Virus record (IMG/VR): IMGVR_UViG_3300023048_000001
Span: 1 to 64,000 of that record
Source of the DNA: a virus
Lineage: Duplodnaviria > Caudoviricetes
DNA: 64,000 bases
Reading direction: 5' to 3' (one strand)
The notes under the pieces were generated by a model. It was not told the origin of the DNA. It worked only from the letters and a program-made list of their open reading frames with translations, and did not search any database. Each line of letters opens with the position of its first letter. Position 1 is the stretch's first letter. Made by a program: the position numbers and the translations under genes. Below are positions 7,771 to 47,196 of this stretch, in pieces.

Positions 7771-7788
7771 CTAATATAGGAGAGTGCT

Positions 7789-7796
7789 AATAAATA
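7789..7796 (+). promoter_or_regulatory. Late promoter (AATAAATA)
   Basis: 26 nt upstream of the revised start at 7823. Confidence 0.6.
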
Positions 7797-7822
7797 GTAG
7801 GATTAAAGAATCCATTATTACT

Positions 7823-11122: not shown

Positions 11123-12177
11123 TGTCATTATTTTCTAATTTTAAAAAAGTTCTTTTAAATAAAAAGACCGGTAACATAATTAACACAGACAAGAATCTTG
11201 AAAAATTTCAGGATGGGTTTACTTATGCATCAACAATACCATCATCACAATGGACCATAAATCACAATTTTGATTCTACTGATATCATTGTGGAGATTTT
11301 CATTTATGACGATAATAAGAATCTTATTAAGGTAAAACCAGTTGTCACTTTCATGGATGGGAAATCAATATTAGTTGATTTCCTCGGTGAACAGGTAACT
11401 GGTAAAGCAACTCTATTATTCTTTGGTACAACATTGGACCCAATGGATTTGGTAACACCATCCCCAAGCCCTACCAGCACTCTGACGCCAACCCCTACAC
11501 CAACAGCATCATCATCACCAACTCCTACCCCAACGATTTCATTATCGTTGACACCTTCACGTACACCAAAGCCAACCAATACAGCAACACCTTCTGTTAC
11601 GGCATCTGTCACACCAACGTTAACCATTACGCCAAGTTTGACACCATCACCAACACAAACATTGACACCAACAGCAACATCGTCGGTAACACCATCAGTG
11701 ACAGCATCAGTAACCCCAACGGTTTCGTTTACGCCATCGTCAACGGTTACGCCAACGCCTACAGCAACCCCTGAAGTTACCTCAACATTAACTCCAACAC
11801 CTGAACCATCAGTTTCCCCAACGTTGACACCTACAGCTACGGTAACTCCAACAATGACTGTAACTCCAACGTTGTCAGAAACACCTTCAATAACACCAAC
11901 ACAGACCCCATCTGAAAGTGTATCACCAACACCTTCACCAACAATTTCATTCACTCCAACGCTTACCTCAACCAGAACACCAACTGTTACGCCTACGATT
12001 TCCGTAACACCTTCAATAACACCAACGTTATCAGTTACGCCATCAATAAGCCCAACAATTTCTCTATCTGGATCGGTGACACCAACTATTACTGTAACTC
12101 CAAGTATCTCACCTTCAATGGAGCCGACACCTTCAATGTCAGCATCATTTGCAACACCAACACCGTCTAGTACCTAA
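11122..12177 (+). CDS. Anchor domain plus headless mucin-like PTS tail (351 aa)
   Basis: N-terminal PSSQWTINHNF...GKATLLFF module resembles the N-terminus of 1835..7480; the last ~240 aa are almost entirely T/S/P/V. Confidence 0.75.
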   Translation: MSLFSNFKKVLLNKKTGNIINTDKNLEKFQDGFTYASTIPSSQWTINHNFDSTDIIVEIFIYDDNKNLIKVKPVVTFMDGKSILVDFLGEQVTGKATLLFFGTTLDPMDLVTPSPSPTSTLTPTPTPTASSSPTPTPTISLSLTPSRTPKPTNTATPSVTASVTPTLTITPSLTPSPTQTLTPTATSSVTPSVTASVTPTVSFTPSSTVTPTPTATPEVTSTLTPTPEPSVSPTLTPTATVTPTMTVTPTLSETPSITPTQTPSESVSPTPSPTISFTPTLTSTRTPTVTPTISVTPSITPTLSVTPSISPTISLSGSVTPTITVTPSISPSMEPTPSMSASFATPTPSST

Positions 12178-27778: not shown

Positions 27779-28237
27779 ATGACTCAGAACGTACCCCATG
27801 TAACAGCACTAGATTTGTTTAACAACGGTATTGACTACGAAGTAGTTGTACTAAAGCAGGATCGTAATAACGGTGACGTATATTTCATCAGAACCGATTA
27901 CCTTGACGAAATTGACTACCAGCGTATCGGCCAGATTTTAACTCGCAGAGATGCAGGTCGTATGGAAGCTTGGGATTTATTCAGCGGCATTACCCTAGGT
28001 AATGGCATGAATGCTCTTGAATACTTCCACCAGTTTGTAAAGGTAAAGACTCGCTCAGGCGAAATCATGGCACCAAACCCACGCCGTCAGGGTTCAGCAG
28101 CACCTAAGCTTCTAAATGCACAGTCATTTGCTCAGGCAGCAGCACAGAATAGAGCAAATGCTGCAAATGAGACTGCCACCCAGCAGGCCGCAGCACCAAA
28201 GAAGGCTGGTCGTCCACCAAAACAAGATAAGCAGTAA
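27779..28237 (+). CDS. Hypothetical late protein with C-terminal AT-hook-like KKAGRPPK
   Basis: 152 aa; strong AAGGAG/GAGG RBS. Confidence 0.65.
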   Translation: MTQNVPHVTALDLFNNGIDYEVVVLKQDRNNGDVYFIRTDYLDEIDYQRIGQILTRRDAGRMEAWDLFSGITLGNGMNALEYFHQFVKVKTRSGEIMAPNPRRQGSAAPKLLNAQSFAQAAAQNRANAANETATQQAAAPKKAGRPPKQDKQ

Positions 28238-28321: not shown

Positions 28322-29719
28322 ATGGATACAAACTCAATTTTCGTACAAATTGCTAGTTACCGTGATCACCAGCTAATCCCAACGCTGCTAGACATGGTAT
28401 CAAAAGCATCATCACCAGAATTACTAAGAGTTACCGTTTGCTGGCAGCATGCCGCTGACGAAACTATTGAAGATTTCGTAGATAATGGATTCGATGTCGT
28501 CTCCACCGATGAAATCCTAGGCGATAAGGTTCATAGCCTAACAGTCAAGGGAGCTAAGGTCGAGTTAATCGACTTGCATTATCTTTCAACTCATGGCGCT
28601 TGCTGGGCACGTAATAAGATTCAGCAGCATTACCAAAATGAGAAATACACCCTACAGCTTGATTCCCACCATAGATTCGTTGAGAAGTGGGATTCTCAAT
28701 TGATTGATATGTTGGAGTCTGTAAGAGACGTAAGTCCGAAGCCTCTATTGACGGCTTACATCCCTTCTTTTGATCCAGAAAATGATCCAGAAGGTCGTGT
28801 ACAGGAACCTTGGAAGATGGACTTTGATCGTTTTATTCCAGAAGGTGCCGTATTCTTCCGTCCATCAACTATTGATGACTGGCGTGAACGTGATAAGCCA
28901 ATGCTTTCCCGCTTCTACAGCGCACACTTTGCCTTCGCTGATGGTTCATTTGCCACTGAAGTACAGCATGATCCAGAATACTTCTTCCATGGTGAAGAGA
29001 TTTCAATCGGTGTTCGTGCATTTACTCATGGCTACGATCTATACCACCCACACCGTACCGTTGCATGGCACGAATATACCCGCAAGGGACGTGTAAAGGT
29101 TTGGGATGACCACACTACCCAGCAGAAAGTAAAGGGTAAGATTAATGAAGATTGGCTAGAAAGAAACAACAGTTGCCATGCACGTAACCGTATTCTTTTC
29201 GGCATGGATGGTCAAGACCCATCACAGATTGATTTTGGTAAGTATGGTTTTGGTACTGTACGTACTGTAAAGCAGTTCGAAGAGTATGCAGGTATGAGCT
29301 TCAAGCTACGTGGTGTTCAGCAGAAGGTTCTAGATAATGTTGAACCAACTCTTGACTACCAGACTTACGAGACTGATGAAGAGTTTAAAGCAACTATTGC
29401 TCGCTCAAATGATATCCGTGTATGTATCCACAAGAATGACGTTACATGGTTTAACCCGGATACCCAGCAGGTAGAGAAGTATCCCGACACCGATTTCGAT
29501 TTCTGGTATGTTGGTGCACATGATGCTGATGGTGTTGAAATCTACCGTAAGGACTTGTCCGAAGGTGAGATTGCTACATACTTAAAGAACGGTGAGTGGA
29601 TCGATTATCGCTTCATCTTTATGTGTGATCCGAATAAAATTGCGAAGACTTATACGGTCCTTCCTCATAGTAAATCTAAGGAATGGCTAGAAAGAATTGT
29701 ACGCTCAGCAGATAGCTGA
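28322..29719 (+). CDS. GT60-family polypeptide alpha-N-acetylglucosaminyltransferase (Gnt1/Gnt2-like)
   Basis: IFVQIASYRD, GACWAR, LQLDSHHRF..WD, FYSAHFAF, HDPEYFFHGEEI..RAFTHGYDLYHP, WHEY are hallmark motifs of the GT60 (Pfam GlcNAc) family. Confidence 0.88.
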   Translation: MDTNSIFVQIASYRDHQLIPTLLDMVSKASSPELLRVTVCWQHAADETIEDFVDNGFDVVSTDEILGDKVHSLTVKGAKVELIDLHYLSTHGACWARNKIQQHYQNEKYTLQLDSHHRFVEKWDSQLIDMLESVRDVSPKPLLTAYIPSFDPENDPEGRVQEPWKMDFDRFIPEGAVFFRPSTIDDWRERDKPMLSRFYSAHFAFADGSFATEVQHDPEYFFHGEEISIGVRAFTHGYDLYHPHRTVAWHEYTRKGRVKVWDDHTTQQKVKGKINEDWLERNNSCHARNRILFGMDGQDPSQIDFGKYGFGTVRTVKQFEEYAGMSFKLRGVQQKVLDNVEPTLDYQTYETDEEFKATIARSNDIRVCIHKNDVTWFNPDTQQVEKYPDTDFDFWYVGAHDADGVEIYRKDLSEGEIATYLKNGEWIDYRFIFMCDPNKIAKTYTVLPHSKSKEWLERIVRSADS

Positions 29720-29726
29720 GCGTCAC

Positions 29727-29734
29727 AATAAATA
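29727..29734 (+). promoter_or_regulatory. Late promoter (AATAAATA) for the carbamoyltransferase-GT operon
   Basis: 24 nt upstream of ATG 29759, the same spacing as for structural genes. Confidence 0.65.
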
Positions 29735-29758
29735 CCGGTATAAGAATAAAGAGAAAAC

Positions 29759-32089
29759 ATGAAAGATAAATTAATCCTATCCGCTTATGGATCACACAAT
29801 GCTGCAATAGCAATGTATTATAAGGGTGAATATAGGGTAATTGAAGTCGAAAGGTGGTTAAATTCCAAGAATATTGGGTTAACCACCTACATGCCGTGTA
29901 AACATCCACAGATTGTTTTCGATGAGATTACTGACTATTTGCTATCTACCACAGATCGCAGCGATGTAGACGTTTTCCTTACTGACTATGTTCAGAGAAT
30001 TACCCCCAAGTTCCATGTAAAAGAAGCTCTAGGCTTCGACCACCATACTGCTCATGCAGCAACTGCATTCTACCAGTCTCCTTACAAGGAGTCTTTGGTG
30101 TTCACGTTTGATGGTGGTGGCGATAATGGGTACTTCAACGTCTACCTTGCAAGCCGCCAGAATGGTATCAAGTTAATTGACAAGTTTGATCAGGATTTGG
30201 GATTCCCATATATGATCATCGGTGATTACTTGAATGATATTAAGAAAGAATCATTAAGTATTGGTAACCTAGTTTATGCAGGAAAGATTATGGGACTATG
30301 TTCCTATGGTCAGATTCATGACGATTGGGTTCCACATTTTGATGAGTTCTATTCGCAGTTCAACTACATTGGTAACTCCTTCATCGGTGGTGCAGAAGCA
30401 CGCTATACTGCATTAACAACATTATTCAAGGCTATTGGTTTTGAAGATTTTGATTTTGAGACCAGTAGATATGAAGGCCAGTTAGCATGGGACATCGCTG
30501 CTACCTCACAAAAGGCTTTTGAAAATCAGTTCTTCAAGTACGCACAGAAATATCTTGATTCATATCCTGATATGCCAGTGTCTATGGCTGGTGGCTGTGC
30601 CCTAAACGTTTTGTTAAATTCAAAACTATTAGCTTTAAGAAATAACAAAGTATTCGTTCCACCTAATGTCAATGACTGTGGTATCGCCTCTGGTGGTCTT
30701 CTCTGGTATTTGAAACCAGATGGTCAGGTTGATCTAACCTATTCTGGAACTCATGTTCTAGATAAGAACCAGTTTGGTACGTTTGTGCAGGAATACGACC
30801 TAGTTGTTCATGAAAACGTAACGGTTGAAGATTTGGCTCAGTACATTGCTGATGGTAACATTGTTGGTATGATTCAGGGTAATTCAGAACATGGTTCTCG
30901 TGCACTTGGAAACCGAAGCATTATTTGTGCACCGGGTGAAGGCATGAAGGATGTATTGAATAATAAGGTGAAGCATCGTGAATGGTATCGCCCATTTGCA
31001 CCTATTGCTCGCCTAGATGATGCATACAAGTACTTTGAAATTGATGAGGGTGTAGAGTCCCGTCACATGGTTTTCGTTGCTAACGTCCGTGAAGAATGGA
31101 GAAGCACACTTCCTGCAATTACGCATGAAGACTTCACCGCCCGTCTTCAGACTGTCACCAAGAGCCAGAACACCTTGATCTATGATCTAATCACCGAATT
31201 TGAAAAGATTACAGGTTATGGCGTTATTTTGAACACTTCGTTCAATGTTGATGGTAAGCCAATCCTAACCCGTTTATCAGATGCATTTAAAATTCTTCGT
31301 GATACTCAGTTGGATGCAGTTTACTTTGAAGGCAAACTGATCATGCGTCATACCAATGACACCTTTAAGAAGACTAAGGAAGAAGCGGTTAAAGTAGCTA
31401 AAACTGACGACACTTCCATCTATGTTCTATCTTTCAAGGAAGATAAGGCTGCAATGGTTCAGGATATGGATAAGATTAAGGAATTGATTCGTGATGGCCG
31501 CAAGATCGGTGTCATGATTCCAGATTACAACTATCCAGTTTATGCTGAGGTTCTACCAGAAAGTGACTCGTTGAAGTATTTCAAGATCGGCAATCGTCAG
31601 CGTTATTATGATAGTCGTTTGATTAAACCATTTAAATTAAAGAAACAGGATGTCGTTGAGTATTCCAGATATATTAAGCTACTTTGGTGTAAGGAAATTT
31701 TACATGCCAACTTGTTTAACACAAAGTATCATCTATATGTAAATCTTGATGAAATGGCAATCCGTGAGTACGCATACAATATTTCTCGTGATGTCGATCT
31801 GCTTTCAATCTTCGCTAAGACTGATGATAATATCATTATCACTTCCAAGAAGAATTTAGGTAGCATTTTCACTCCTGAATATGTTTTGAAGCGTTTCAAT
31901 AAAGAAATTGAGACTTATCCTACAGCAGCATTGTTCTGTGGTAATGATGAGAATCTTGAATGGATGTTCAATAATTACGAGGGTGTATTGTTGTGGTATG
32001 TAGGTATGGATATGTTTGGTGAAGACCATGATTACCTACTCGTCTCGGCAATCGAAAACGAAAGCAGATATAAGTTCTTAGACGCATGA
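29759..32089 (+). CDS. O-carbamoyltransferase (NodU/CmcH/TobZ family) with a C-terminal HtrL-like extension
   Basis: HHTAHAATAF, DGGGD, GKIMGL, AGGCALNV, NDCG, RALGNRSI, KHREWYRPFAP, TARLQTV, LNTSFNVDGKPI; extra ~240 aa with KLLWCKE...NLFNTKYHLYVN. Confidence 0.92.
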   Translation: MKDKLILSAYGSHNAAIAMYYKGEYRVIEVERWLNSKNIGLTTYMPCKHPQIVFDEITDYLLSTTDRSDVDVFLTDYVQRITPKFHVKEALGFDHHTAHAATAFYQSPYKESLVFTFDGGGDNGYFNVYLASRQNGIKLIDKFDQDLGFPYMIIGDYLNDIKKESLSIGNLVYAGKIMGLCSYGQIHDDWVPHFDEFYSQFNYIGNSFIGGAEARYTALTTLFKAIGFEDFDFETSRYEGQLAWDIAATSQKAFENQFFKYAQKYLDSYPDMPVSMAGGCALNVLLNSKLLALRNNKVFVPPNVNDCGIASGGLLWYLKPDGQVDLTYSGTHVLDKNQFGTFVQEYDLVVHENVTVEDLAQYIADGNIVGMIQGNSEHGSRALGNRSIICAPGEGMKDVLNNKVKHREWYRPFAPIARLDDAYKYFEIDEGVESRHMVFVANVREEWRSTLPAITHEDFTARLQTVTKSQNTLIYDLITEFEKITGYGVILNTSFNVDGKPILTRLSDAFKILRDTQLDAVYFEGKLIMRHTNDTFKKTKEEAVKVAKTDDTSIYVLSFKEDKAAMVQDMDKIKELIRDGRKIGVMIPDYNYPVYAEVLPESDSLKYFKIGNRQRYYDSRLIKPFKLKKQDVVEYSRYIKLLWCKEILHANLFNTKYHLYVNLDEMAIREYAYNISRDVDLLSIFAKTDDNIIITSKKNLGSIFTPEYVLKRFNKEIETYPTAALFCGNDENLEWMFNNYEGVLLWYVGMDMFGEDHDYLLVSAIENESRYKFLDA

Positions 32090-32937
32090 AATTCATAACA
32101 GCAATTTTTAACGGGTTACATGGTTCTAAGTTTGGTGGAAGATTGAATAGAGATAGGCACTACACCTACTCTATTCGTACTCTAGCTAATTTAGGACATC
32201 CAATGGTGTGTTACATCGCAACAGATGATATGCCATTTGTACAAGAGTACTTGGCTAAGCATGAAGTAACTAACATTGAGTTTAGAGAATATGATCTTGA
32301 ATCTTTTGAATACCATAAAAAGATTCAAGAGATTAAAGAAATAAACAAAGCGGTATATGCTGAAGACAACGTGTGGGAATATCGTTCAGTTGAACTGATG
32401 TGGTTGAAGTTGTTCTGGTTAAAGCAGGAAGCTGACACTATGGCTGACATGGATAAAGTGTTTTGGATAGATGCTGGATTATCACATGGTGGTATCATGC
32501 CTAAAAAGTATAATGAAAGCCCATTGGATGAATATGAGCAATCATTCCGTAACATTAAGGCTTTCAATCCTAAATTAGCATCTAAGCTTGATAATCTAAC
32601 ACAAGAATCATTGTTTACCTTTTATTGTAACAACAGACAGCATCATTACCCACCACTTTATTCTCATGATAATGTAATGAGCGGTAGTGTTGTGGCAGGG
32701 TTGTTTGGTGGTAGAGTTTCTGATGTGAAGACTCTATTTGAGAAGGGTAAGGAAATTATTGATTATATTGTTACAGAAGACACTCTTCTACAAGAAGAAC
32801 TAATTCTGACATTAGTACATCAACATAATCCGGGACTCTTCCGTGCATTTGATTTTGATACATGGTACCACGAAGACTGGAATTGCTTTGATCCATCAAT
32901 GAAATCATTTAGCGCATTCTTCGAAGGTCTTGCATGA
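32086..32937 (+). CDS. HtrL/YibB-like putative glycosyltransferase
   Basis: FITAIFN...KLFWL...FWIDAGLSH...AGLFGG...EELIL; paralogous to the N-terminus of 33678..35318. Confidence 0.7.
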   Translation: MKFITAIFNGLHGSKFGGRLNRDRHYTYSIRTLANLGHPMVCYIATDDMPFVQEYLAKHEVTNIEFREYDLESFEYHKKIQEIKEINKAVYAEDNVWEYRSVELMWLKLFWLKQEADTMADMDKVFWIDAGLSHGGIMPKKYNESPLDEYEQSFRNIKAFNPKLASKLDNLTQESLFTFYCNNRQHHYPPLYSHDNVMSGSVVAGLFGGRVSDVKTLFEKGKEIIDYIVTEDTLLQEELILTLVHQHNPGLFRAFDFDTWYHEDWNCFDPSMKSFSAFFEGLA

Positions 32938-33665
32938 GTGGCTATGATTGGGATAGCAAGATAGTTTTCGTTACTCTAGCCATTGGCGAAGAGTATCTAG
33001 AAAAGTGTTTGACATTGGTGCAGAGTGTGATGAAATTCACACACTCTGACATCTATATCATGACTGATCTACCCGAGCTAGCCCAATCTCATGCTAACTA
33101 TTATGGTAAGCGCATGAAGATTGTGGATATTCATGAATATCCATTATACACATCACACATCGATGGTAAGTTTAATTATCATTTGAAGTCAGTAGCATTA
33201 TGGTCTGTGTCAAGAATGTGTAGTGAAGTTATGATTTACGTTGATGCTGACACATTCCTCTTCGGATGGGATAGCAGTATTTCCAGATACGTTAATGGAT
33301 TTGAAGAAACTCTTATGTGTCGCTTCAGAGAACGTGTATCAGACAACACCAGCCTCGCTAGATTCGTCCCTAACAAGGCCGCAGCACATGGCGTAGACTT
33401 CCATACTATAGATGCTAGGTTGGCCGTAGAGACCGTTATGGTGCTTACCAGAGGCTCTTTAACTACTGAGTTCCTTCAGGTATGGAAAGACATCACAGAT
33501 TTCTCAATTGAAAATAAAATTGATCCATTTATTGAAGCTTTTGAGCTTGCATTGGCAATTCACAGGAGCAACATGAACACAATAAATGTAAATAACAAGA
33601 CACCGTTCGCAGATAGTTTCAGGACGGTACATAATAATAAACTAATATCTACGAACATAATTTAA
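32934..33665 (+). CDS. GT-A fold putative glycosyltransferase
   Basis: FVTLAIGEEY, YIMTD, FNYHLK, IYVDAD (DxD); ATGA-coupled within the operon. Confidence 0.65.
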   Translation: MSGYDWDSKIVFVTLAIGEEYLEKCLTLVQSVMKFTHSDIYIMTDLPELAQSHANYYGKRMKIVDIHEYPLYTSHIDGKFNYHLKSVALWSVSRMCSEVMIYVDADTFLFGWDSSISRYVNGFEETLMCRFRERVSDNTSLARFVPNKAAAHGVDFHTIDARLAVETVMVLTRGSLTTEFLQVWKDITDFSIENKIDPFIEAFELALAIHRSNMNTINVNNKTPFADSFRTVHNNKLISTNII

Positions 33666-33677
33666 ATTAGGATTGGC

Positions 33678-35318
33678 ATGAGTAAAAATTTAACACTAGT
33701 GACAGCTTTGTTCAATATCGGTCGTGGGGAAATGGACACCGATTTTAAACGTTCATTTGACCATTACATTGAATGTTTTGAAAGACTGTTGAGATTAGAC
33801 TTTCCAATGGTCATTTACATTGAAGCAGCAAATGAACACATTGTTTGGAAGCATAGAAAGCCAGAAAACACCCGAGTCATTCTTAAGACTTTGGAAGATG
33901 TTCGCAACTTTCCATTTAATGATAAAATTCAGAAGATCAGAACTGATAAGAATTGGTACGGTCAGGCTGGCTGGCTAGAGAATAGTACTCAGGCTAGACT
34001 AGAACTATACAATCCAGTTGTCATGAGCAAGCAGTTCATGTTGAATGATGCTTCGCTATTTAATCACTTTGATTCGAAGTATTATATGTGGATCGATGCT
34101 GGCCTATCAAACACTGTAAACATTGAACAGTATTTTGATGCTGAATTTGAGCAGAGAATTACACCACACCTTAAGAAGATGATGTATATTGCATTCCCTT
34201 ATGATGGTCAGGTTGAAGTTCATGGTTTCACCAAGTCAGCAATGAATCGTTTTGCTGGTAAGGATACGGAATACGTTTGCCGTGGTGGCCTATTCGGTGG
34301 TTCTAAGGATGCCATCAATGAGATGAATGACATCTACTACCATACATTGAATGACACGCTAAGCAATGGCTACATGGGTACAGAAGAGAGCATCTTTACC
34401 ATCATGTCATATCAGCACCCTAAGAAGTGTAATATTCAGTTCATTGATGGTAATGGTTTGATCGTCAAGTTCCTAGACGATCTTAAGCAGAACAGAATTG
34501 AAGCTGAGCCAGAGTTCCCACTCGCGTTCTATACGTTGACCTTCAACATTCCAAAGCAGTTTGAAATGTGGGCAGAATCCCTAAAGACAGCGTATCCTCA
34601 GGACTTCGATAAGGTTAAGAAGTACGTCATTGACAACTCAAATGATCCAGACGTTGCCGCCGAGTATTCAGAACTATTCAAAAAGTACAATTGCGAAGTA
34701 TTCAAGTTCGACAACATCGGTATTAATGATGGTCGCCAGTTTGCAGCAGAGCATTTCGACAAGAGTAATCACAAATACATGATCTTCTTCGAAGATGACA
34801 TGCTTATGTTTGAAAATGGTAATAGCCGTTGTGTAAGTGGTTTCACGACATGGCAGGCTGACTTGTTCAACAAGTGCATGGAAATCGTTGAGGATGAAGA
34901 CCTAGATTACTTAAAGCTTGTGTTCTCTGAGTTCTATGGTAATAACCACAATGATTGGGGATTCAAGAATGTCCCATCATCAAAGAGAGAAGAACTCTAT
35001 CCAGATACCGGCGATGCTGATAAGCGTTGGAAGACAAAGATTCATTATACCCATTCGTACAAAGGTCTCCCATATTCTGTAGGTCATTATCACTACTGCA
35101 ACTGGCCTATTTTGTTCACCAAGAGAGGAAACAAGAGAATCTTCTTGGATGATAAGTACGAACATCTTTATGAGCAGAACTGGATGAGTCTAGCCGCACA
35201 GTTCCAGCATGACGGTTCAATGAAGTCCGCTTGTTTGTTGGCAACACCAGTAAATCATTTTAGAAAGTACCATTATAGAGAAGGTACAAGACGAGAAAAT
35301 AAGCATTATAAAAATTAA
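33678..35318 (+). CDS. Two-domain glycosyltransferase: HtrL/YibB N-domain plus GT2-like C-domain
   Basis: LVTALFNIGR...Y...SKQFML...YMWIDAG...GGLFGG...GTEESI; then VIDNS...NIGINDGRQ...IFFEDD. Confidence 0.8.
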   Translation: MSKNLTLVTALFNIGRGEMDTDFKRSFDHYIECFERLLRLDFPMVIYIEAANEHIVWKHRKPENTRVILKTLEDVRNFPFNDKIQKIRTDKNWYGQAGWLENSTQARLELYNPVVMSKQFMLNDASLFNHFDSKYYMWIDAGLSNTVNIEQYFDAEFEQRITPHLKKMMYIAFPYDGQVEVHGFTKSAMNRFAGKDTEYVCRGGLFGGSKDAINEMNDIYYHTLNDTLSNGYMGTEESIFTIMSYQHPKKCNIQFIDGNGLIVKFLDDLKQNRIEAEPEFPLAFYTLTFNIPKQFEMWAESLKTAYPQDFDKVKKYVIDNSNDPDVAAEYSELFKKYNCEVFKFDNIGINDGRQFAAEHFDKSNHKYMIFFEDDMLMFENGNSRCVSGFTTWQADLFNKCMEIVEDEDLDYLKLVFSEFYGNNHNDWGFKNVPSSKREELYPDTGDADKRWKTKIHYTHSYKGLPYSVGHYHYCNWPILFTKRGNKRIFLDDKYEHLYEQNWMSLAAQFQHDGSMKSACLLATPVNHFRKYHYREGTRRENKHYKN

Positions 35319-35321
35319 TGT

Positions 35322-35356
35322 TTGACACTACATTGGGGATCAATTATGATCCCCAA
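35322..35356 (+). promoter_or_regulatory. Sigma70-like promoter overlapped by a 24-bp palindrome
   Basis: TTGACA (35322-27), 17 nt spacer, TATGAT (35345-50); TTGGGGATCA-ATTA-TGATCCCCAA at 35333-35356. Confidence 0.65.
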
Positions 35357-35376
35357 GTCATTTATGAGGATTTAAA

Positions 35377-35811
35377 ATGTCATTTCCATATGCAGATGGT
35401 ATCTTTCGCACCGCAGATGGGTCCGAACTTCAATTGGAATTTCATCTGAAAGAAAAGTCACAATACAATGGCATTGTTTTCCATAAAAACGAAATCATTA
35501 AAATGTTTGAAAAGTTAAAGTTCTCATCGAACAAATTGATTGGTAATTGGGATCAATATTTTCTAAATTATGACTTAGGTACAGTTTGGGCTTCTGTAGA
35601 CTCTATACTTTTCTATGATCATCGAATTGTACTCAAATTTAAAATTTTAGATACACCTGTTGGTAAAACAAACAAAGAAATGTGGGATACGCTCATTAAT
35701 GTGAAGCATGAATTTTTTGTATCACTAACACATAATAATGGTAAAAATCTTTCATTTTTAACAATTAATTACACCCCAAAATTTGAACCATCGGTACCAG
35801 CTAATGCTTAA
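35377..35811 (+). CDS. Hypothetical protein resembling a degenerate prohead protease (gp21-like)
   Basis: NGIVF...LIGNWD...KFKILDTPVG resembles gp21 NGRxY...GELxHP...KxKILDTPxG; catalytic His and Ser motifs not evident. Confidence 0.45.
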   Translation: MSFPYADGIFRTADGSELQLEFHLKEKSQYNGIVFHKNEIIKMFEKLKFSSNKLIGNWDQYFLNYDLGTVWASVDSILFYDHRIVLKFKILDTPVGKTNKEMWDTLINVKHEFFVSLTHNNGKNLSFLTINYTPKFEPSVPANA

Positions 35812-36247
35812 AACTATTCATCAAATTGTAAGTCACAATGATTCAATGTTTGCAACTGAAAAATACCTTGTAAGCCGTGACCATTCAGTATACGAAGATG
35901 GGAACCACTATTTTAGTTATAATTTCTTCATTTCAAGAAAGGAAGTTATTATTCCTGTCAAGAAGCCTAAAGAAGGTCAGCCTAAAGAAGAAATCAGAAT
36001 TATTGATAGCAAATGCCCGCATTTCTTAGTTAAGAATGAATATGGCGTGTATGTTCCAGCAGATAAATCAATAACAAAAATGCTGGATTATTATGGTGTT
36101 GAGCATAAGTATTTTCAGCGTTACTATCAAGATATGAAAGCAATGGATATTGATGCCCACCGAGAACTGGAACCTTCTCAGATGTGGTTCAGCGATTACT
36201 ATACAATTTGGAAATTTAATGACCAAGAAAAAGAAACTGGAAAATAA
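35804..36247 (+). CDS. Hypothetical protein
   Basis: ATG 35804 overlaps the end of the upstream gene; preferred over the TTG at 35783. Confidence 0.55.
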   Translation: MLKTIHQIVSHNDSMFATEKYLVSRDHSVYEDGNHYFSYNFFISRKEVIIPVKKPKEGQPKEEIRIIDSKCPHFLVKNEYGVYVPADKSITKMLDYYGVEHKYFQRYYQDMKAMDIDAHRELEPSQMWFSDYYTIWKFNDQEKETGK

Positions 36248-36623
36248 CTGGCTCCGCGAACTAATCCCTGATCGTTTCAGTGATTTGGATTACTTGTATG
36301 CTTCCGTACTGTACAAAGGTTTAGTGTTCTTTTGGACGAAAGATGATGGTGAGAAGACACTTCGATACCAGTGGGAACACGTAGAACAGATGAGAGCCGA
36401 GCAGGATGCGGATTACCTATCTGAGACAAAATCATGGGATGATCGTTATGACCATTTCAAAATAATTTACGATGAGTTAGCCGAAGCATATACTTGGGCT
36501 ACTGGCTTCGATGATAGAATGAACAGATCGTATGATTCTATCAAGGAAAGGCAGCGTGAGCGCGAGTTAGATGATAAGCATTTAGCCAATATCATCAAGC
36601 ACAGATGTTCTATGTGGACCTGA
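36219..36623 (+). CDS. Hypothetical protein
   Basis: ATG 36219 is in frame with track ORF 36150..36623; ends IIKHRCSMWT. Confidence 0.55.
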   Translation: MTKKKKLENNWLRELIPDRFSDLDYLYASVLYKGLVFFWTKDDGEKTLRYQWEHVEQMRAEQDADYLSETKSWDDRYDHFKIIYDELAEAYTWATGFDDRMNRSYDSIKERQRERELDDKHLANIIKHRCSMWT

Positions 36624-37468
36624 TGATAATATTTAATTTTCCAGATAGAGCATGCCAAACTCTTGATGAGCTTTCACAGAAGGCGTATTACATAACGCAT
36701 TACGAACATGTTAAAACATATCTTGGATACTTCGGTCACATAAGATTGATCGATGCTGATACCACTATTGTCACTGATAGACACAACAATAACTTTACTG
36801 TGGCTCTCCATGGTAAAGGCAAGAAGATCATATTCGATTACTCTGATTTTGATTACAATGTCCTCGATATGACTCTTTTTGACAGTAGAACACCGTACTT
36901 TAAATTTCATACCACGAAGAACACTAACCCTAGATGCATAGCATTCCCACCAATGTCTTTCACGGATTGGGATGATTACCACTACCTTAAAGACAGCATA
37001 AGTTACAATCCACAGGGAAGTATCTTCTATAAGTGCAGAATCTATGGTGGTGCTACTGAGCGTAGAACTCAGGTATTAGATATGCTCAAGGGCTACTATG
37101 GCGTACCCGTTGACTTTACATTCGTAATGCAGTCTAATTATTTCCAATCTATGAACGATTGCAGGATAAATGTTATTGTTCCGGGTGCTAGGAATGATAT
37201 CCTTGACAGGACTCATCTTCAGTCGTTTGCATACGGAATCCCTGTAATCACTCCTTACATATCCACGATCCTTCCATTTGGTATGCAGTTTGAACCAAAT
37301 GTGGATTACATTGAATGTGCGAGCGATTTCAGTGATGTCATCGAATTGATAGATAGGTATAAGGACAATAAAAAATATCTTGACTTTATATCCAATAACT
37401 GTAAGAATAAATTTAGTAAAACATGTTCATTAGAAGCAGTTCAAAGTTGGGTGTTACAGAACATTTGA
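36623..37468 (+). CDS. GT-B fold putative glycosyltransferase (GT1-like/exostosin-like C-terminal domain)
   Basis: TGATG coupling; R.QVL...YFQSM..CRINVIVPG...R.HLQSFAYGIPVI...FEPNVDYIEC..DFSD. Confidence 0.65.
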   Translation: MIIFNFPDRACQTLDELSQKAYYITHYEHVKTYLGYFGHIRLIDADTTIVTDRHNNNFTVALHGKGKKIIFDYSDFDYNVLDMTLFDSRTPYFKFHTTKNTNPRCIAFPPMSFTDWDDYHYLKDSISYNPQGSIFYKCRIYGGATERRTQVLDMLKGYYGVPVDFTFVMQSNYFQSMNDCRINVIVPGARNDILDRTHLQSFAYGIPVITPYISTILPFGMQFEPNVDYIECASDFSDVIELIDRYKDNKKYLDFISNNCKNKFSKTCSLEAVQSWVLQNI

Positions 37469-44034: not shown

Positions 44035-47000
44035 TTATAGGTATTTCTTAATACTGAAGTTATCCCACATATAGACATCACCGGTTCCTATACCCGAGTT
44101 GGTTGAACCACTGGTTAGCGTAGTTGGTGTTAATACCATCGAGAACTGTGTTGCAGAAGATGGGAAGGTAACATAAGTGACAAATGTTCCAGTACCATTT
44201 AAGTTATTGGAAGTAGAATAATATGTATTTGTACCATCACCAATGTTTACATTCAAATACTGAACAGCAGCATTCGTTGCTAGATAATCAAATTGTATTT
44301 TGTAGGTAATGGCTTGAGTGTTTGAGATTGCTCCACTCAATTTTGCTGTTACTGTACCCAATGCCAATGATACTGTGGACACTAATCTACCAGCATTAAT
44401 ACTCAACACACAGTTAGTACCACTGAATGCCGATGGTACTGAACCTGTTGAGAATGTACCATCAGTAACCAATTCTGGACCTGCCGCAGTTAATGTAACT
44501 GATGGTGTTAGCGTTGGTGTCACTGATCGTGTTTGTGTTAATGATGGTGTGATTGATAATGTTGGCGTTACTGTTGGTGTAATCGTTCTGGTCACTGTAA
44601 TTGAAGGTGTTGCGGTTACACTCGGAGTCACTGATTTGGTTGGTGTTACCGATGGTGTGATTGAAATAGTTGGTGAAACTGTTAATGTAGGTGTAACAGT
44701 TGGTGATACCGTCTTGGTAACGCTTGGTGTTACGGTAATTGTACCCGTCACTGATGGGGTCGCTGTCAATGTTGGCGTTGTTGTCAGCGTTGGGCTCATT
44801 GTTGGTGAAAGTGTCAGCGTAGGCGTCACAGCCATTGAAGTGGTTGCAGTAACTGATGGCGTAACTGTTATTGTCTGTGTCACTGTTGGTGATGGTGTTG
44901 GCGTTGGGGTATCGGTCAACGTTGGAGTAACAGTCACACTTGGTGTCACGGTAATCGTTGGTGAAGCTGTCACGGTATTTGTCACTGTTGGCGTGAATGT
45001 CACGCTTGGTGTCATTGAAATAGTGGATGTCAATGTTGGCGTAACAGTTAATGTAGGACTCAATGTAACTGATGGGGTTAATGTGATTGTTGGTGTAATT
45101 GATGCTGTAACTGTTGGTGTTACCGTTACTGATGGTGTAGTAGTGGTGGATGGTGTTGTTGTTACCGATGGAGTCACCGAAATGGTTTGAGTCACTGATG
45201 GTGAAACTGTTGGGGTAGGTGTTGCTGTCATACCTGAAGTGCCAGTAACTGATGGTGTTACTGTATTTGTAGGTGTAAGTGTTGGTGACACGGTTGCAGT
45301 TACAGAAGGCGTCATTGATGCTGTAGTTGAAATTGTTGGTGTGACTGTTGGCGTAGCTGACAATGAGATGGTAGCCGTGACTGATGGTGTCACCGTCACT
45401 GAAGCTGTTGGTGTTGGTGATTCAGTTAATGTTGGTGTAGCAGTCATTGTTGGAGTCAATGTAACGGATGGAGTCACAGAAATTGACTGCGTAACTGTTG
45501 GACTTAAGGTTACCGATGGCGTTGCAGTCATTGATGGCGTCAACGTAACTGATGGCGTAACTGATACTGACTGAGTTTGTGTTGGTGTTGGGGTTACTGC
45601 TGGTGTATCAGTAACGGTAGGTGTCATAGTAACGCTTGGTGTAAGTGTTGGTGAAACTGTTTGTGTAACTGTTGGAGTCATTGATGGAGACACAGTAAGC
45701 GTGGCTGTAGTTGTTGGTGTAGGTGTAACAGCCGGAGTATCTGTCATCGTAGGCGTAACAGTAAATGATGGTGTTACCGTAGTGGATGCGGTTTGTGTTG
45801 GTGTAATTGTAGGTGACGGTGTAGCCGTCACTGAAGGACTTAATGAAACAGTAGCCGTGATAGTTGGTGTAATAGTTGCACTTACTGTCTGTGTAACAGT
45901 TGGAGTTACCGTAGGTGTTATTGTCGTAGTCGTTGTTGGTGTAGGGGTTGGACTATCTGACACTGTAGGTGTAATCGTAGCTGTAACGGATGGTGTTACA
46001 GACGCAGTTTCAGAAATAGTTGGGGTTACAGTCAATGTGGGTGTTGATGAAACTCCCGGAGTATTTGTCACTGTAACTGTAGGCGTCACAGACGCGCTCA
46101 CAGAAGCCGTCTGTGATGGTGTTAATGAGATTGTAGGCGTAACTGTAGAAGTCGCTGTAGGCGTTAGTGAGGCAGTCACAGATATGGTTGGCGTGACTGT
46201 TGCCGTAATAGAACTTGTAACTGATGGTGTTAGTGAGGGGCTGACTGTTGTAGACACGGTAGGAGTTGGAGTTACCGTAGCTGAAGCACTTAATGAAAGG
46301 CTTGGGCTGATGGTAACCGTAGCCGTTACAGTAGGGGTTGGTGATTTAGTTGTAGTTGGCGTATTTGATGGAGCCACCAGCGTACCACTTGGAGCCATCG
46401 TTGGGGTTACTGTCACAGATGGTGTAGCGGTGGTGGTTGGTGTTGGAGTTACAGGGACGTTATCACGAGTCACTTTATAGAATGCCAAATCTTCTATAAA
46501 GTATTGTTTTGTTCTAGCAGCAGGAATCTTATAGTTTGCATCATCAAATAATTTTATAGTTAATGTAAGATTGCTATCAGAAGGCATGTAAAGATAATAA
46601 GAAATTCTTCCACTATCACGGATAGGACAATAGATCATCAAATCTTGTTGTAGATCGGAAATAGAATCACCAAACAAGAAGGGGTTATTTGATGATAATG
46701 TTACGATGGCATATCGACATATACCTTGTTCATAGTCAAACGAGAAATGATAGTAGTTATTACCCGAAACCGGCATATTACTTGCTGTAAAGGTAGGGAA
46801 CTGAGTTTTGTTGGCTGAAGCAGAAATCAACTGAATCTGATTCTTACCATTCTGAAATCCAGTTTTAGTAGTGCCATAAGCTGGAACCCACTGATTAATG
46901 TTTTTGAACCAATTATCTATAGCCATCCAAGTCATTGTAGGAGTCATGGTAGGTGTGGCAGTAGCAGCAGGGGTCTTGGTAGGCTGTCTAGACGGTGTTA

Positions 47001-47196
47001 CCGTGGGTGTTGGTGTACGTGTTACTAGGGATGCAGCAGTCAGATAGGCATTGGTGGTAAGAACAGTGTATGTCTTCCCTTTGGATACTATTACGTATGA
47101 GATTAGAACACCATTTGTATAGTTGATTGATGTGACCGCACCATACATTACAATAGTACCACTTAGAAAATATACAAAATCGCCAATTTTAAACAT
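44035..47196 (-). CDS. Mucin-like virion fibre protein with a ~650-aa PTS stalk and CBM-like tip
   Basis: N-terminal ~250 aa paralogous to 51272..55909 (YYHFSFDYEQGICRY vs YYNFNFDYEQGTMRY); C-terminal ELVTDGTF...WDNFSIK; late promoter at 47220-47227. Confidence 0.8.
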   Translation of the reverse strand: MFKIGDFVYFLSGTIVMYGAVTSINYTNGVLISYVIVSKGKTYTVLTTNAYLTAASLVTRTPTPTVTPSRQPTKTPAATATPTMTPTMTWMAIDNWFKNINQWVPAYGTTKTGFQNGKNQIQLISASANKTQFPTFTASNMPVSGNNYYHFSFDYEQGICRYAIVTLSSNNPFLFGDSISDLQQDLMIYCPIRDSGRISYYLYMPSDSNLTLTIKLFDDANYKIPAARTKQYFIEDLAFYKVTRDNVPVTPTPTTTATPSVTVTPTMAPSGTLVAPSNTPTTTKSPTPTVTATVTISPSLSLSASATVTPTPTVSTTVSPSLTPSVTSSITATVTPTISVTASLTPTATSTVTPTISLTPSQTASVSASVTPTVTVTNTPGVSSTPTLTVTPTISETASVTPSVTATITPTVSDSPTPTPTTTTTITPTVTPTVTQTVSATITPTITATVSLSPSVTATPSPTITPTQTASTTVTPSFTVTPTMTDTPAVTPTPTTTATLTVSPSMTPTVTQTVSPTLTPSVTMTPTVTDTPAVTPTPTQTQSVSVTPSVTLTPSMTATPSVTLSPTVTQSISVTPSVTLTPTMTATPTLTESPTPTASVTVTPSVTATISLSATPTVTPTISTTASMTPSVTATVSPTLTPTNTVTPSVTGTSGMTATPTPTVSPSVTQTISVTPSVTTTPSTTTTPSVTVTPTVTASITPTITLTPSVTLSPTLTVTPTLTSTISMTPSVTFTPTVTNTVTASPTITVTPSVTVTPTLTDTPTPTPSPTVTQTITVTPSVTATTSMAVTPTLTLSPTMSPTLTTTPTLTATPSVTGTITVTPSVTKTVSPTVTPTLTVSPTISITPSVTPTKSVTPSVTATPSITVTRTITPTVTPTLSITPSLTQTRSVTPTLTPSVTLTAAGPELVTDGTFSTGSVPSAFSGTNCVLSINAGRLVSTVSLALGTVTAKLSGAISNTQAITYKIQFDYLATNAAVQYLNVNIGDGTNTYYSTSNNLNGTGTFVTYVTFPSSATQFSMVLTPTTLTSGSTNSGIGTGDVYMWDNFSIKKYL
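44488..46455 (-). repeat. Degenerate coding repeat for ~650 aa of (T/S)-X dipeptides
   Basis: Continuous TPSVT/TPTIT/TATPT tract in the translation. Confidence 0.9.

What the first reader, a model, noticed from the sequence alone, without database searches (positions are those of the whole stretch)
28322..37468. Candidate phage mucin O-glycosylation system: a GT60 GlcNAc transferase cluster alongside eight mucin-stalk virion proteins (viral glycocalyx)
Seen: a GT60 enzyme with an intact DSH motif, then a carbamoyltransferase, HtrL-like, GT-A, HtrL+GT2 and GT-B genes. The same window has at least eight proteins with hundreds of PTVT/PSVT/PTIT units and no signal peptides. Established: GT60 enzymes add alpha-GlcNAc to protein hydroxyls. 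Dictyostelium Gnt1 acts on Skp1 hydroxyproline, while Dictyostelium Gnt2/ModB and Trypanosoma cruzi OGNT2 act on Thr in mucin repeats (the Dictyostelium PsA substrate has PTVT repeats). Some actinobacteriophages and giant viruses are known to glycosylate their virions. Inference: GT60 primes the Thr/Ser stalks in the host cytoplasm and the other enzymes extend and cap the glycan. This would give stiff, protease-resistant bottle-brush fibres holding lectin heads away from the virion, a eukaryote-style mucin coat on a T4-like phage. I do not know of a described example.
Basis: partly seen in the sequence, partly recalled or inferred. Interest (0 to 1): 0.95.

Follow-up and report, generated by a model that had tools for sequence, protein, structure and literature searches.

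The report
Phage mucin-type fibre glycosylation module
A large uncultured phage carries a GT60 sugar transferase, the family that starts mucin-type glycosylation in protists. Comparative genomics ties this enzyme to long Pro-Thr-Ser stalks in virion fibre proteins and, separately, in bacterial type VI secretion spikes, which points to a widespread, undescribed protein-glycosylation system.

Summary
Window 28322-29719 encodes a GT60/PF11397 enzyme (E 2.3e-78) with an invariant DSH (DxH) motif. It is followed by a NodU/CmcH-type carbamoyltransferase, two weak GT-A-like ORFs, a 546-aa dual GT-A protein and a weak GT-B-like ORF. Eight window ORFs (nine in the contig) hold about 3,470 aa of PTVT-type tracts between anchor domains and lectin-like heads.

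The window is the start of a 174.6-kb metagenomic jumbo myophage related to Xanthomonas phage XacN1, where the cluster is syntenic.

The proposed GT60-to-PTS link passed every comparative test I could run:
- 52% of 83 viral GT60 loci have a PTS-rich ORF within 10 kb, against 4% of 117 random loci.
- 11 of 12 complete GT60+ viral genomes are PT-tract rich, against 1 of 20 random ones.
- 4 of 4 deposited GT60+ jumbo phages are PT-tract rich, against 0 of 6 GT60-less relatives.
- In Burkholderiaceae T6SS clusters, only the GT60-adjacent VgrG spikes carry (TP)n tails (5 of 5, against 0 of 16 paralogs).

The conserved core is GT60 plus the dual GT-A protein (76 of 84 loci). The GT60 model is closest to polypeptide GalNAc-transferases (Z about 20). 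XacN1 virions contain periodic acid-Schiff (PAS)-positive proteins (PMC5852040).

No glycan has been shown on any PTS tract. An earlier scan note on this genome raised the same idea. Verdict: a well-supported new variant of virion glycosylation.

The parts
28322..29719 (+). GT60-family (PF11397) glycosyltransferase. GT-A catalytic domain at residues 1-335 with a DSH (DxH) motif at 114-116. C-terminal beta-rich domain at about 355-465, function unknown. Predicted initiating polypeptide Ser/Thr HexNAc transferase.
   Evidence: PF11397 E 2.3e-78. AF2 pLDDT 85.9. The top 29 PDB entries by VIA-align are polypeptide GalNAc-transferases (Z 18-21).
29759..32089 (+). NodU/CmcH-type carbamoyltransferase with a 247-aa C-terminal extension of unknown family. 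Accessory enzyme, probably O-carbamoylating a sugar.
   Evidence: PF02543 and PF16861 match. It is not a NodU equivalog (176 bits against a cut-off of 1000). Present in 17 of 84 GT60 loci. An ATAAATA motif lies 31 nt upstream.
32086..32937 (+). Weak HtrL/YibB-like ORF, a putative single-domain GT-A. Accessory.
   Evidence: TIGR02192 E 5.7e-6, below cut-off. Homolog in 24 of 84 loci.
32934..33665 (+). Putative GT-A-like ORF (weak). Accessory.
   Evidence: DUF1647 E 0.004. (Atlas feature lead; GT8 on 20% of one cluster). Homolog in 7 of 84 loci.
33678..35318 (+). Dual GT-A glycosyltransferase and the conserved partner of GT60. The N-domain (1-269) is HtrL_YibB, GT6-like. The C-domain (276-546) is an inverting-type GT-A with an EDD motif. 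Predicted to add two further sugars or to polymerise a disaccharide.
   Evidence: Found on the same strand and next to or near GT60 in 76 of 84 loci. pLDDT 90. C-domain Z 16.5 to B4GALNT1. N-domain Z 13 to GT6 enzymes.
36605..37468 (+). GT-B-like (Glyco_trans_1_2-like) ORF. Weakly supported accessory.
   Evidence: Homolog in 5 of 84 loci.
27779..28237 (+). Conserved 152-aa ORF directly upstream of GT60, function unknown, carrying the late-type ATAAATA motif 46 nt upstream. A hairpin separates it from GT60.
   Evidence: (16 of 84 loci; syntenic in XacN1).
3..1790 (+). PTS protein 1 (5' end runs off the window). Two PT tracts flank a Laminin_G_3 domain.
1835..7480 (+). PTS protein 2 (1881 aa). 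Four PT tracts, an F5/8 type C domain and a C-terminal 'tail protein' domain (phrog_5939).
   Evidence: An ATAAATA motif lies 31 nt upstream.
7784..11122 (+). PTS protein 3 (1112 aa). The N-terminal 310-aa domain is shared with PTS protein 7. Has a C-terminal Laminin_G_3 head.
11122..12177 (+). PTS protein 4 (351 aa). A 90-aa N-domain followed by a 260-aa PT tract running to the C-terminus.
44035..47196 (-). PTS protein 5 (1053 aa). An N-terminal 240-aa anchor domain is shared with PTS protein 6 and PTS protein 9. It has a 680-aa PT tract.
   Evidence: ATAAATA 30 nt upstream.
51272..55909 (-). PTS protein 6 (1545 aa). Four PT tracts and three Laminin_G_3 matches.
   Evidence: ATAAATA 29 nt upstream.
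57043..61005 (-). PTS protein 7 (1320 aa). A 690-aa PT tract and a C-terminal beta-propeller head.
   Evidence: TATAAATA 26 nt upstream.
61040..64000 (-). PTS protein 8. It runs off the window to contig position 65950 (about 1635 aa) and has three PT tracts.

Best explanation
This is a phage-encoded, cytoplasmic, mucin-type protein O-glycosylation module.

Proposed mechanism:
1. The GT60 enzyme (28322-29719) transfers a HexNAc, most likely alpha-GlcNAc from UDP-GlcNAc, onto Thr/Ser hydroxyls of the (P-T/S-x-T/S)n stalks. These stalks sit in eight or nine large virion fibre proteins, each built as an N-terminal anchor domain, a PT stalk and lectin-like heads.
2. The conserved dual GT-A partner (33678-35318) then adds two further sugars or a short repeat.
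3. In this lineage, accessory enzymes decorate the chain. They are the carbamoyltransferase, the small GT-A-like ORFs, the GT-B-like ORF, and a second six-gene sugar-modifying operon at contig 65984-70736, directly upstream of the fibre genes.

The products would be densely glycosylated, extended stalks that hold carbohydrate-binding heads away from the particle.

Shown here: family membership and the catalytic motif, the fold, the conserved two-gene core, the genomic association with PT tracts in two unrelated contexts, and a shared late-type promoter motif.

Inferred: the acceptor, the sugar, the order of steps, virion incorporation and the physical role.
For: 1. Family. PF11397 matches at E 2.3e-78 and the DxH motif is invariant. 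[quoted passage not shown] Characterised GT60 enzymes make GlcNAc-alpha1-O-Thr on T. cruzi mucins (PMC9472816).

2. Fold. The AF2 model (pLDDT 85.9) is closest to polypeptide GalNAc-transferases: Z 18-21, rmsd 3.8 A, about 280 residues, 29 entries in a row. The next classes score lower, LARGE1 at 16.7 and K4CP at 15.6.

3. Local co-occurrence. 43 of 83 viral GT60 loci have a PTS-rich ORF within 10 kb, against 5 of 117 random loci (p 3e-15). Density is 70 against 2.3 tract residues per 10 kb. 12 of 16 GT60 clusters at 70% identity are positive.

4. Whole genomes. 11 of 12 GT60+ viral genomes at least 90% complete have 8-64 pattern hits, against 1 of 20 random complete genomes (p 1e-6). XacN1, Xoo-sp13, RAS14 and CM1 have 39-50 hits. 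Six GT60-less jumbo relatives have 0-4.

5. Reverse test. 9 of 44 viral records with a (TP)4T tract carry PF11397, against 0 of 48 random records (p 8e-4).

6. Independent context. In Burkholderiaceae T6SS clusters that contain GT60, all 20 neighbouring VgrGs end in Pro/Thr/Ser repeat tails. Within five genomes, 5 of 5 GT60-adjacent VgrGs have (TP)n runs and 0 of 16 paralogs do.

7. Conserved core. GT60 and the dual GT-A gene lie on the same strand, adjacent or near, in 76 of 84 loci.

8. Experimental hint. XacN1 virions have periodic acid-Schiff (PAS)-positive bands, and its authors proposed the phage glycosyltransferases as the cause (PMC5852040).

9. Acceptor precedent. PTVTPTP-type tracts are heavily glycosylated in T. 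cruzi gp72 (PMC3630849).

10. Expression and location. The ATAAATA motif lies 25-46 nt upstream of PTS, sheath and tube genes, of the ORF before GT60 and of the carbamoyltransferase (14 of its 20 occurrences in the window). The enzymes have no transmembrane or signal segments.
Against: - No glycan has been shown on any PT tract, and the periodic acid-Schiff (PAS)-positive XacN1 bands were not identified.
- PT tracts are plentiful in some phage genomes without GT60. Examples are a complete 181-kb genome with 25 hits and a provirus with 41. Pro/Thr-rich linkers are generally regarded as working as unglycosylated spacers too (my own knowledge, not checked here).
- One complete GT60+ genome (175 kb) has essentially no tract.
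- HtrL/YibB genes sit in LPS-core clusters of enterobacteria, and NodU-type enzymes act on free oligosaccharides. The partner enzymes therefore do not in themselves point to a protein acceptor.
- Many of the viral loci are related, so the counts overstate independence.
- The sugar donor cannot be read from the sequence.
- Virion location of the PTS proteins rests on synteny, PHROG hits and promoter motifs only.
Confidence: 0.68

Rival explanations
1. The glycosyltransferase cluster remodels a host cell-surface glycan (LPS core, O-antigen, EPS or capsule) during infection, for example to stop progeny adsorbing to debris or to exclude other phages. The PT tracts are plain unglycosylated linkers.
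For: The N-domain of the dual GT-A protein belongs to HtrL_YibB, a family placed in enterobacterial LPS-core gene clusters (placement from my own knowledge). NodU-type carbamoyltransferases act on oligosaccharides. Sugar-modifying clusters of jumbo cyanophages have been read as surface-polysaccharide systems (PMC7824862). Soluble enzymes without transmembrane segments fit cytoplasmic-face LPS enzymes equally well.
Against: This does not explain why GT60 tracks PT tracts across phage genomes. It also does not explain why only the GT60-adjacent VgrG paralogs carry (TP)n tails in T6SS clusters. The characterised GT60 members cited here (the T. cruzi OGNT enzymes) and GT27 enzymes act on polypeptides (PMC7185993, PMC9472816). 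The GT60 model is closest to polypeptide transferases.
Confidence: 0.12
2. GT60 glycosylates some other protein target, such as capsid, sheath or tube termini as in mycobacteriophages, or a host protein. The association with PT tracts is a lineage or habitat correlate.
For: Mycobacteriophage glycans sit on capsid and tail-tube C-termini (Freeman 2023, cited in PMC12619734). One complete GT60+ genome lacks PT tracts. The viral loci are phylogenetically clustered.
Against: The association holds in 12 of 16 GT60 clusters at 70% identity. It holds against GT60-less relatives of the same polymerase lineage. It also holds in an unrelated bacterial T6SS context with a within-genome paralog control. 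In one GT60 cluster, 19 of 19 loci have a PTS ORF within 10 kb, and in the loci read in detail (such as L047 and L020) it lies directly upstream on the same strand.
Confidence: 0.13
3. The enzymes hypermodify phage DNA by glycosylating a hydroxymethylated base, to evade restriction.
For: Phage glycosyltransferases often act on DNA (Pyle 2024, cited in PMC12619734). A ThyA-family gene is present at 43012-44007. The C-domain of the dual GT-A protein gives a non-significant hit to TET-associated glycosyltransferase (E 0.045).
Against: No Tet/JBP gene was found in this contig, XacN1, Xoo-sp13 or RAS14, although the control genomes did not ring either. XacN1 DNA was mapped with ordinary restriction enzymes such as NaeI and SpeI (PMC5852040). 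The ThyA match is full length at 6.8e-75, as expected of a normal thymidylate synthase. This reading offers no explanation for the PT-tract or VgrG associations.
Confidence: 0.04

Closest known systems
GT60 polypeptide alpha-GlcNAc transferases of protists (T. cruzi TcOGNT1/2; Dictyostelium GntB/Gnt2)
   Same: Same Pfam/CAZy family and the same DxH motif. The acceptor-like sequences are Thr/Pro-rich repeats of the PTVT type. The initial sugar is later extended by other transferases (PMC9472816, PMC7185993, PMC3630849).
   Different: The protist enzymes are Golgi membrane proteins acting on secreted or GPI-anchored mucins. The phage enzyme is soluble, with no signal or transmembrane segment, and would act in the bacterial cytoplasm on virion proteins. 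It has an extra C-terminal beta domain. Its activity has not been measured.
Animal polypeptide GalNAc-transferases (GT27), initiators of mucin-type O-glycosylation
   Same: Closest solved structures to the catalytic domain (Z 18-21). Same DxH (DSH) metal motif. The substrates are dense Ser/Thr/Pro tracts.
   Different: No sequence-level match. No ricin-type lectin domain was detected. Different CAZy family and probably a different sugar.
Xanthomonas phage XacN1 virion glycoproteins (Yoshikawa et al. 2018, PMC5852040)
   Same: Closest cultured relative. GT60 is 63% identical, the five-gene cluster ORF334-330 is syntenic, and 50 PT-pattern hits include ORF369-372 beside the tail sheath. Virion proteins stain with periodic acid-Schiff (PAS).
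   Different: The paper named only 'glycosyltransferase family protein'. It did not identify the stained bands and did not note the PT tracts, GT60 or the dual GT-A partner.
Mycobacteriophage virion O-glycosylation (Freeman et al. 2023, cited in PMC12619734)
   Same: Phage-encoded glycosyltransferases modify virion proteins inside the host cell.
   Different: The glycans sit on short C-terminal tails of capsid and tail-tube subunits, not on stalks hundreds of residues long. The hosts are Actinobacteria. Whether the same enzyme family is used was not examined here.
Glycosylated fibrils and capsids of giant viruses (Mimivirus, chloroviruses)
   Same: Virus-encoded cytoplasmic glycosylation of surface fibres. 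The dual GT-A protein gives Foldseek matches to Mimivirus R699.
   Different: These are eukaryotic viruses with different enzymes and different acceptor proteins. No GT60 to PT-tract relationship has been reported for them.

Membership tests
CAZy GT60 / Pfam PF11397 (GlcNAc transferase) | Profile match above the curated cut-off over the whole catalytic domain | tested here: met
   264.6 bits against a cut-off of 21, covering profile positions 1-350 of 352.
CAZy GT60 / Pfam PF11397 (GlcNAc transferase) | DxH motif in place of DxD (hallmark of GT27 and GT60, PMC7185993) | tested here: met
   D114-S115-H116 is invariant in 27 sequences.
CAZy GT60 / Pfam PF11397 (GlcNAc transferase) | GT-A fold | tested here: met
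   AF2 pLDDT 85.9; Z 15-21 to many GT-A enzymes.
CAZy GT60 / Pfam PF11397 (GlcNAc transferase) | Retaining transfer of GlcNAc from UDP-GlcNAc to a protein Thr/Ser/Hyp hydroxyl | not testable with these tools
   Needs an enzyme assay. Only genomic association with PT tracts is available.
CAZy GT60 / Pfam PF11397 (GlcNAc transferase) | Structural similarity to a solved GT60 member (Skp1 GlcNAc transferase Gnt1) | tested here: inconclusive
   No Gnt1 entry appears among the rows listed. I could not check whether it is in the library or ranked lower.
GT27 polypeptide GalNAc-transferases | Catalytic-domain architecture | tested here: met
   Z 18-21, rmsd 3.8 A, about 280 aligned residues.
GT27 polypeptide GalNAc-transferases | Sequence-level family membership | tested here: not met
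   no Pfam or PDB sequence match to GT27 enzymes. It is therefore not filed as GT27.
GT27 polypeptide GalNAc-transferases | C-terminal ricin-type lectin domain | tested here: inconclusive
   residues 355-465 give only a CBM_6 hit at E 0.13. This domain was not folded or searched on its own.
NodU/CmcH carbamoyltransferases | Carbam_trans_N and Carbam_trans_C domains above their cut-offs | tested here: met
   87.7 and 193.9 bits.
NodU/CmcH carbamoyltransferases | NodU equivalog (NF041651) | tested here: not met
   176 bits against a cut-off of 1000. It is a family member but not a NodU ortholog.
HtrL_YibB (PF09612) | Profile match above the cut-off | tested here: met
   33678-35318 N-domain scores 79.1 bits against 24.1. 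The ORF at 32086-32937 fails (TIGR02192 26 bits against 264.9).
Bifunctional dual GT-A polymerases (LARGE1, K4CP, PmHS2) | Two GT-A domains in one chain | tested here: met
Bifunctional dual GT-A polymerases (LARGE1, K4CP, PmHS2) | Processive synthesis of an alternating disaccharide polymer | not testable with these tools
   Whole-chain TM is only 0.22-0.28 with rmsd 18-24 A. The domain-level best matches are non-polymerising enzymes.

The most novel reading that the evidence does not exclude
Large environmental phages, and separately a family of bacterial T6SS spikes, build true mucin- or proteoglycan-like appendages. GT60 primes hundreds to thousands of Thr/Ser residues per particle in the bacterial cytoplasm. 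The dual GT-A partner polymerises or extends a defined glycan, which is then carbamoylated, acetylated or methylated. This would give the virion a glycocalyx that sets fibre stiffness, protease and immune shielding, and adhesion. It would be the first function for prokaryotic and viral GT60, and possibly the evolutionary source of protist mucin-type GlcNAc glycosylation.
Probability: 0.3. Interest if true: 0.92.

Novelty: new variant of a known kind. Interest (0 to 1): 0.8.

Why it matters
GT60 is known only from prokaryotes and protists, and I found no paper assigning a substrate to a prokaryotic or viral member. These results nominate one concrete substrate class, Pro/Thr/Ser repeat stalks of contractile-injection-machine appendages. 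They also show that the module is common: at least 568 IMG/VR contigs, over 6,500 protein clusters and at least 177 bacterial species.

If confirmed, phage virions would carry mucin-like glycan coats made without a secretory pathway. That bears on several questions:
- how large phages present receptor-binding heads;
- why XacN1 shows no visible tail fibres despite more than ten fibre-like genes;
- phage stability and immune recognition;
- how T6SS spikes are decorated.

The idea is directly testable in four cultured phages and in Paraburkholderia and Ralstonia strains.

Tried and rejected
- Complex prediction of GT60 with a 60-residue PT segment returned no verdict (score 0.00, controls not run). 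It counts neither for nor against binding.
- phmmer and a 27-sequence profile against PDB sequences found nothing relevant. The link to GT27 is therefore structural only.
- The strict T4 late promoter TATAAATA is not over-represented (3 matches against 6.5 expected). Only the positions of the relaxed ATAAATA motif are informative.
- The sigma-70 scan was below shuffle expectation (39 against 50).
- Megablast of the cluster against deposited phages found nothing.
- The generic PTS-window count is unreliable in high-GC bacterial loci, because off-frame ORFs are P/T/S/R-rich. I relied on explicit (TP)n runs in identified VgrG ORFs instead.
- The first reverse pattern, (TP)4T, also picks up ordinary linkers and giant-virus contigs. 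I therefore treated it only as a conditional-frequency test.
- The Tet/JBP search was empty, but its control genomes did not ring either, so it is weak evidence.
- Literature searches for GT60 or PF11397 with phage, for virion O-glycosylation, and for VgrG O-glycosylation found no description of this system.
- I considered calling the dual GT-A protein a polymerase and rejected it. The whole-chain similarity to LARGE1 and K4CP is only a shared two-domain layout.

Full report
**What the window is.** The window is the first 64 kb of a 174.6-kb IMG/VR virus contig, about 50% complete by CheckV. It encodes a tail sheath, tail tube, a T4-type family-B DNA polymerase and RNase H. Its nearest deposited relatives are the jumbo myophages Xanthomonas phage XacN1 and Xoo-sp13 and Stenotrophomonas phages CM1 and RAS14. 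DNA polymerase is 47-50% identical and GT60 60-63% identical. There is no nucleotide-level match. In XacN1 the order GT60, carbamoyltransferase, ORF332, ORF331, ORF330 is the same as in the window.

**The observation.**
- Window 28322-29719 is a strong PF11397/GT60 member (E 2.3e-78). D114-S115-H116 is invariant in 27 homologs.
- 29759-32089 is a NodU/CmcH-type carbamoyltransferase with an unexplained 247-aa tail.
- 33678-35318 has an HtrL_YibB N-domain and a second GT-A domain with an invariant EDD motif.
- The calls for 32086-32937 (HtrL-like), 32934-33665 (GT-A) and 36605-37468 (GT-B) rest on sub-threshold matches and Atlas leads.
- The three small ORFs at 35377-36623 have no family and no counterpart in related loci. 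They follow a hairpin and a sigma-70-like promoter, so I leave them out.
- Eight window ORFs carry tracts with at least 60% P/T/S, and a ninth lies at contig 76577-77773. Together they hold 3,466 tract residues, about 1,100 Thr and 500 Ser.
- These proteins are modular. Paralogous N-terminal domains (PTS3/PTS7; PTS5/PTS6/PTS9; PTS2/PTS4) are followed by PT stalks. The heads are Laminin_G_3, F5/8 type C or beta-propeller domains, and PTS2 ends in a PHROG 'tail protein' domain.
- Neither the enzymes nor the PTS proteins show signal or transmembrane segments.

**What the enzymes look like.**
- The GT60 AF2 model has pLDDT 85.9. By VIA-align, its 29 best PDB entries are all polypeptide GalNAc-transferases (Z 18-21, rmsd about 3.8 A, about 280 residues). 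LARGE1 follows at 16.7 and K4CP at 15.6.
- This agrees with the published placement of GT60 beside GT27. [quoted passage not shown]
- The characterised T. cruzi GT60 enzymes make GlcNAc-alpha1-O-Thr on mucins (PMC9472816).
- The 546-aa protein (pLDDT 90) is two GT-A domains. The C-domain is closest to B4GALNT1 and other inverting enzymes (Z 14-16.5). The N-domain is closest to GT6-type retaining enzymes (Z about 13).
- Whole-chain matches to LARGE1, K4CP, LH3 and Mimivirus R699 reflect the two-domain layout only.

**Conserved core.** GT60 relatives occur on at least 568 IMG/VR contigs and in over 6,500 protein clusters, but in only four of 50,697 deposited phage genomes. I examined 84 loci: 83 IMG/VR loci plus the XacN1 locus.
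- The dual GT-A gene lies on the same strand, adjacent or within 5 kb, in 76 loci, in two arrangements.
- The carbamoyltransferase occurs in 17, the HtrL-like ORF in 24, the GT-A-like ORF in 7 and the GT-B-like ORF in 5.
- The module is therefore GT60 plus the dual GT-A protein, with lineage-specific accessories.

**Does GT60 go with PT tracts?** I ran four tests.
1. Local co-occurrence.
   - 43 of 83 viral GT60 loci hold a PTS-rich ORF within 10 kb, against 5 of 117 loci picked by a random 14-mer (p 3e-15). Density is 70 against 2.3 tract residues per 10 kb.
   - In one GT60 cluster, all 19 loci have a PTS ORF within 10 kb. In the loci I read in detail (such as L047 and L020), the PTS ORFs lie directly upstream of GT60 on the same strand.
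   - 12 of 16 GT60 clusters at 70% identity are positive. Three of the four negative clusters have tract hits elsewhere in their records.
2. Whole genomes.
   - I used the pattern P[TS]x[TS]P[TS]x[TS]P. 11 of 12 GT60+ viral genomes at least 90% complete have 8-64 hits, with reversed-pattern controls of 0-2.
   - Only 1 of 20 random complete genomes is positive, and that one is a Pro-Ser hexanucleotide repeat (p 1e-6).
3. Within the polymerase lineage.
   - XacN1 has 50 hits, Xoo-sp13 40, RAS14 39 and CM1 39.
   - RsoM2USA has 1, SCTP-2 0, Turkey3 0, PBECO4 0 and SD-2_S15 0. Phosso has 4, equal to its control.
   - In XacN1 the tracts lie in ORF369-372 beside the tail sheath, syntenic with the window's PTS1-4. 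Others lie in ORF325, ORF350 and elsewhere.
4. Reverse direction.
   - 9 of 44 viral records with a (TP)4T tract carry PF11397, against 0 of 48 random records (p 8e-4).
   - However, several tract-rich records, two of them complete, lack GT60. GT60 implies tracts, but tracts do not imply GT60.

**An independent context.** A scan of one genome per prokaryotic species found the family in at least 177 species.
- 29 of the best 80 loci are Burkholderiaceae and relatives, with GT60 (sometimes in tandem) inside a T6SS cluster. It lies between TssF/G/A with a fimbrial-domain protein on one side and VgrG on the other.
- All 20 VgrGs seen in those clusters end in a Pro/Thr/Ser tandem-repeat tail. Nine have (TP)n, up to 118 residues. 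The others have (TEPPP)n, (PSETPP)n, (PDET)n, (PEPST)n and similar repeats.
- Within five genomes, the five GT60-adjacent VgrGs have (TP)n runs of 52-118 residues. None of 16 other VgrG paralogs has one, including two that are 60-63% identical. These orthologs are not independent, but the paralogs are a within-genome control.
- Another 29 bacterial loci pair GT60 with the dual GT-A gene as in phages. Several of them have unmistakable PT-tract ORFs next door.

**Other support.**
- XacN1 virions contain at least two periodic acid-Schiff (PAS)-positive proteins, and the authors suggested ORF328 and ORF334 as the cause (PMC5852040). They also saw no tail fibres by EM and found no fibre homologs. 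Thin glycosylated stalks could explain that, but this is inference.
- T. cruzi gp72 carries a PTVTPTPP...TPTPTP domain that is heavily glycosylated through GlcNAc (PMC3630849).
- Of 20 ATAAATA motifs in the window, 14 lie 25-46 nt upstream of an ORF start. These include four PTS genes, the sheath and tube genes, the ORF before GT60 and the carbamoyltransferase. This suggests common late expression.
- A six-gene sugar-modifying operon lies at contig 65984-70736, directly upstream of the four giant PTS genes on the same strand. It encodes GT2, a hexapeptide acyltransferase, a Capsule_synth protein, two weak MptE/Maf-like proteins and a weak TylF-like methyltransferase. An earlier scan note had flagged it.

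**Rivals.**
- Host-surface glycan remodelling fits the HtrL and NodU family backgrounds, but it does not explain the tract association or the VgrG paralog contrast.
- DNA hypermodification is unlikely. No Tet/JBP gene was found (a weak test). The ThyA homolog looks ordinary. XacN1 DNA was cut with standard restriction enzymes.
- Another protein acceptor remains possible.
- The docking attempt gave no verdict.

**Verdict.** The core interpretation is supported by comparative genomics in two independent settings, but it is biochemically untested. It is a new variant of virus-encoded virion glycosylation, using a family whose prokaryotic and viral members had no known substrate. I put the probability that GT60 glycosylates the PT stalks at about 0.68, and interest at 0.8.

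Noticed in passing
L336, L340-L364, L388 (bacterial genome loci); L416-L437: In Burkholderiaceae T6SS clusters, the same GT60 family (45-66% identical) sits next to a fimbrial-domain protein. The cluster's VgrG always ends in a Pro/Thr/Ser tandem-repeat tail, (TP)n up to 118 aa. Other VgrG paralogs in the same genomes have none. This suggests glycosylated T6SS spikes, and I found no paper on it.
   Followed up: partly
window 1804, 13014, 16021(-), 16095, 16763, 18655, 26944(-), 27733, 29728, 47226(-), 51272(-), 55938(-), 57040(-), 61031(-): An ATAAATA motif lies 25-46 nt upstream of 14 ORF starts, out of 20 occurrences in the window. It is probably the late promoter of this phage group, a relaxed form of T4's TATAAATA.
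   Followed up: partly
contig G000 65984-70736 (-), locus L438:1984-6736: A second six-gene sugar-modifying operon lies directly upstream of the giant PTS genes on the same strand. It encodes GT2, a hexapeptide acyltransferase, a Capsule_synth (KpsC/S-like) protein, two weak MptE/Maf-like ORFs and a weak TylF-like methyltransferase.
   Followed up: partly
window 43012-44007 (+): Full-length ThyA-family gene (PF00303, E 6.8e-75). I did not test whether it is a thymidylate synthase or a hydroxymethylase.
   Followed up: no
window 35322-35356: A near-consensus sigma-70 promoter (TTGACA-17-TATGAT) overlaps a 10-bp hairpin just after the dual GT-A gene. It precedes three small unconserved ORFs (35377-36623) that interrupt the glycosylation genes.
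   Followed up: no
window 37714-38553 (+): A 279-aa protein with a C-terminal PTH2 peptidyl-tRNA hydrolase domain (E 2.7e-5). It fits the translation-related gene load of XacN1-like phages.
   Followed up: no
window 39947-41419 (-) and 41196-42416 (+): Two convergent ORFs overlap by 224 bp. The second matches a PHROG 'DNA polymerase' family (phrog_24943, E 8e-28), although a complete family-B polymerase lies at 21851-24451. The start codons are uncertain.
   Followed up: no
IMG/VR records G001 (181 kb, complete), G015 (provirus), G011, G038: These phage records have very many PT-pattern hits (25 to 148) but no PF11397 gene. Either the stalks are unglycosylated or another enzyme family serves them.
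   Followed up: no
window 28322-29719, residues 355-465: The GT60 enzyme has a conserved C-terminal beta-rich domain with no family (CBM_6 only at E 0.13). It may be a tract-binding or glycan-binding module, analogous to the lectin domain of GalNAc-transferases.
   Followed up: no
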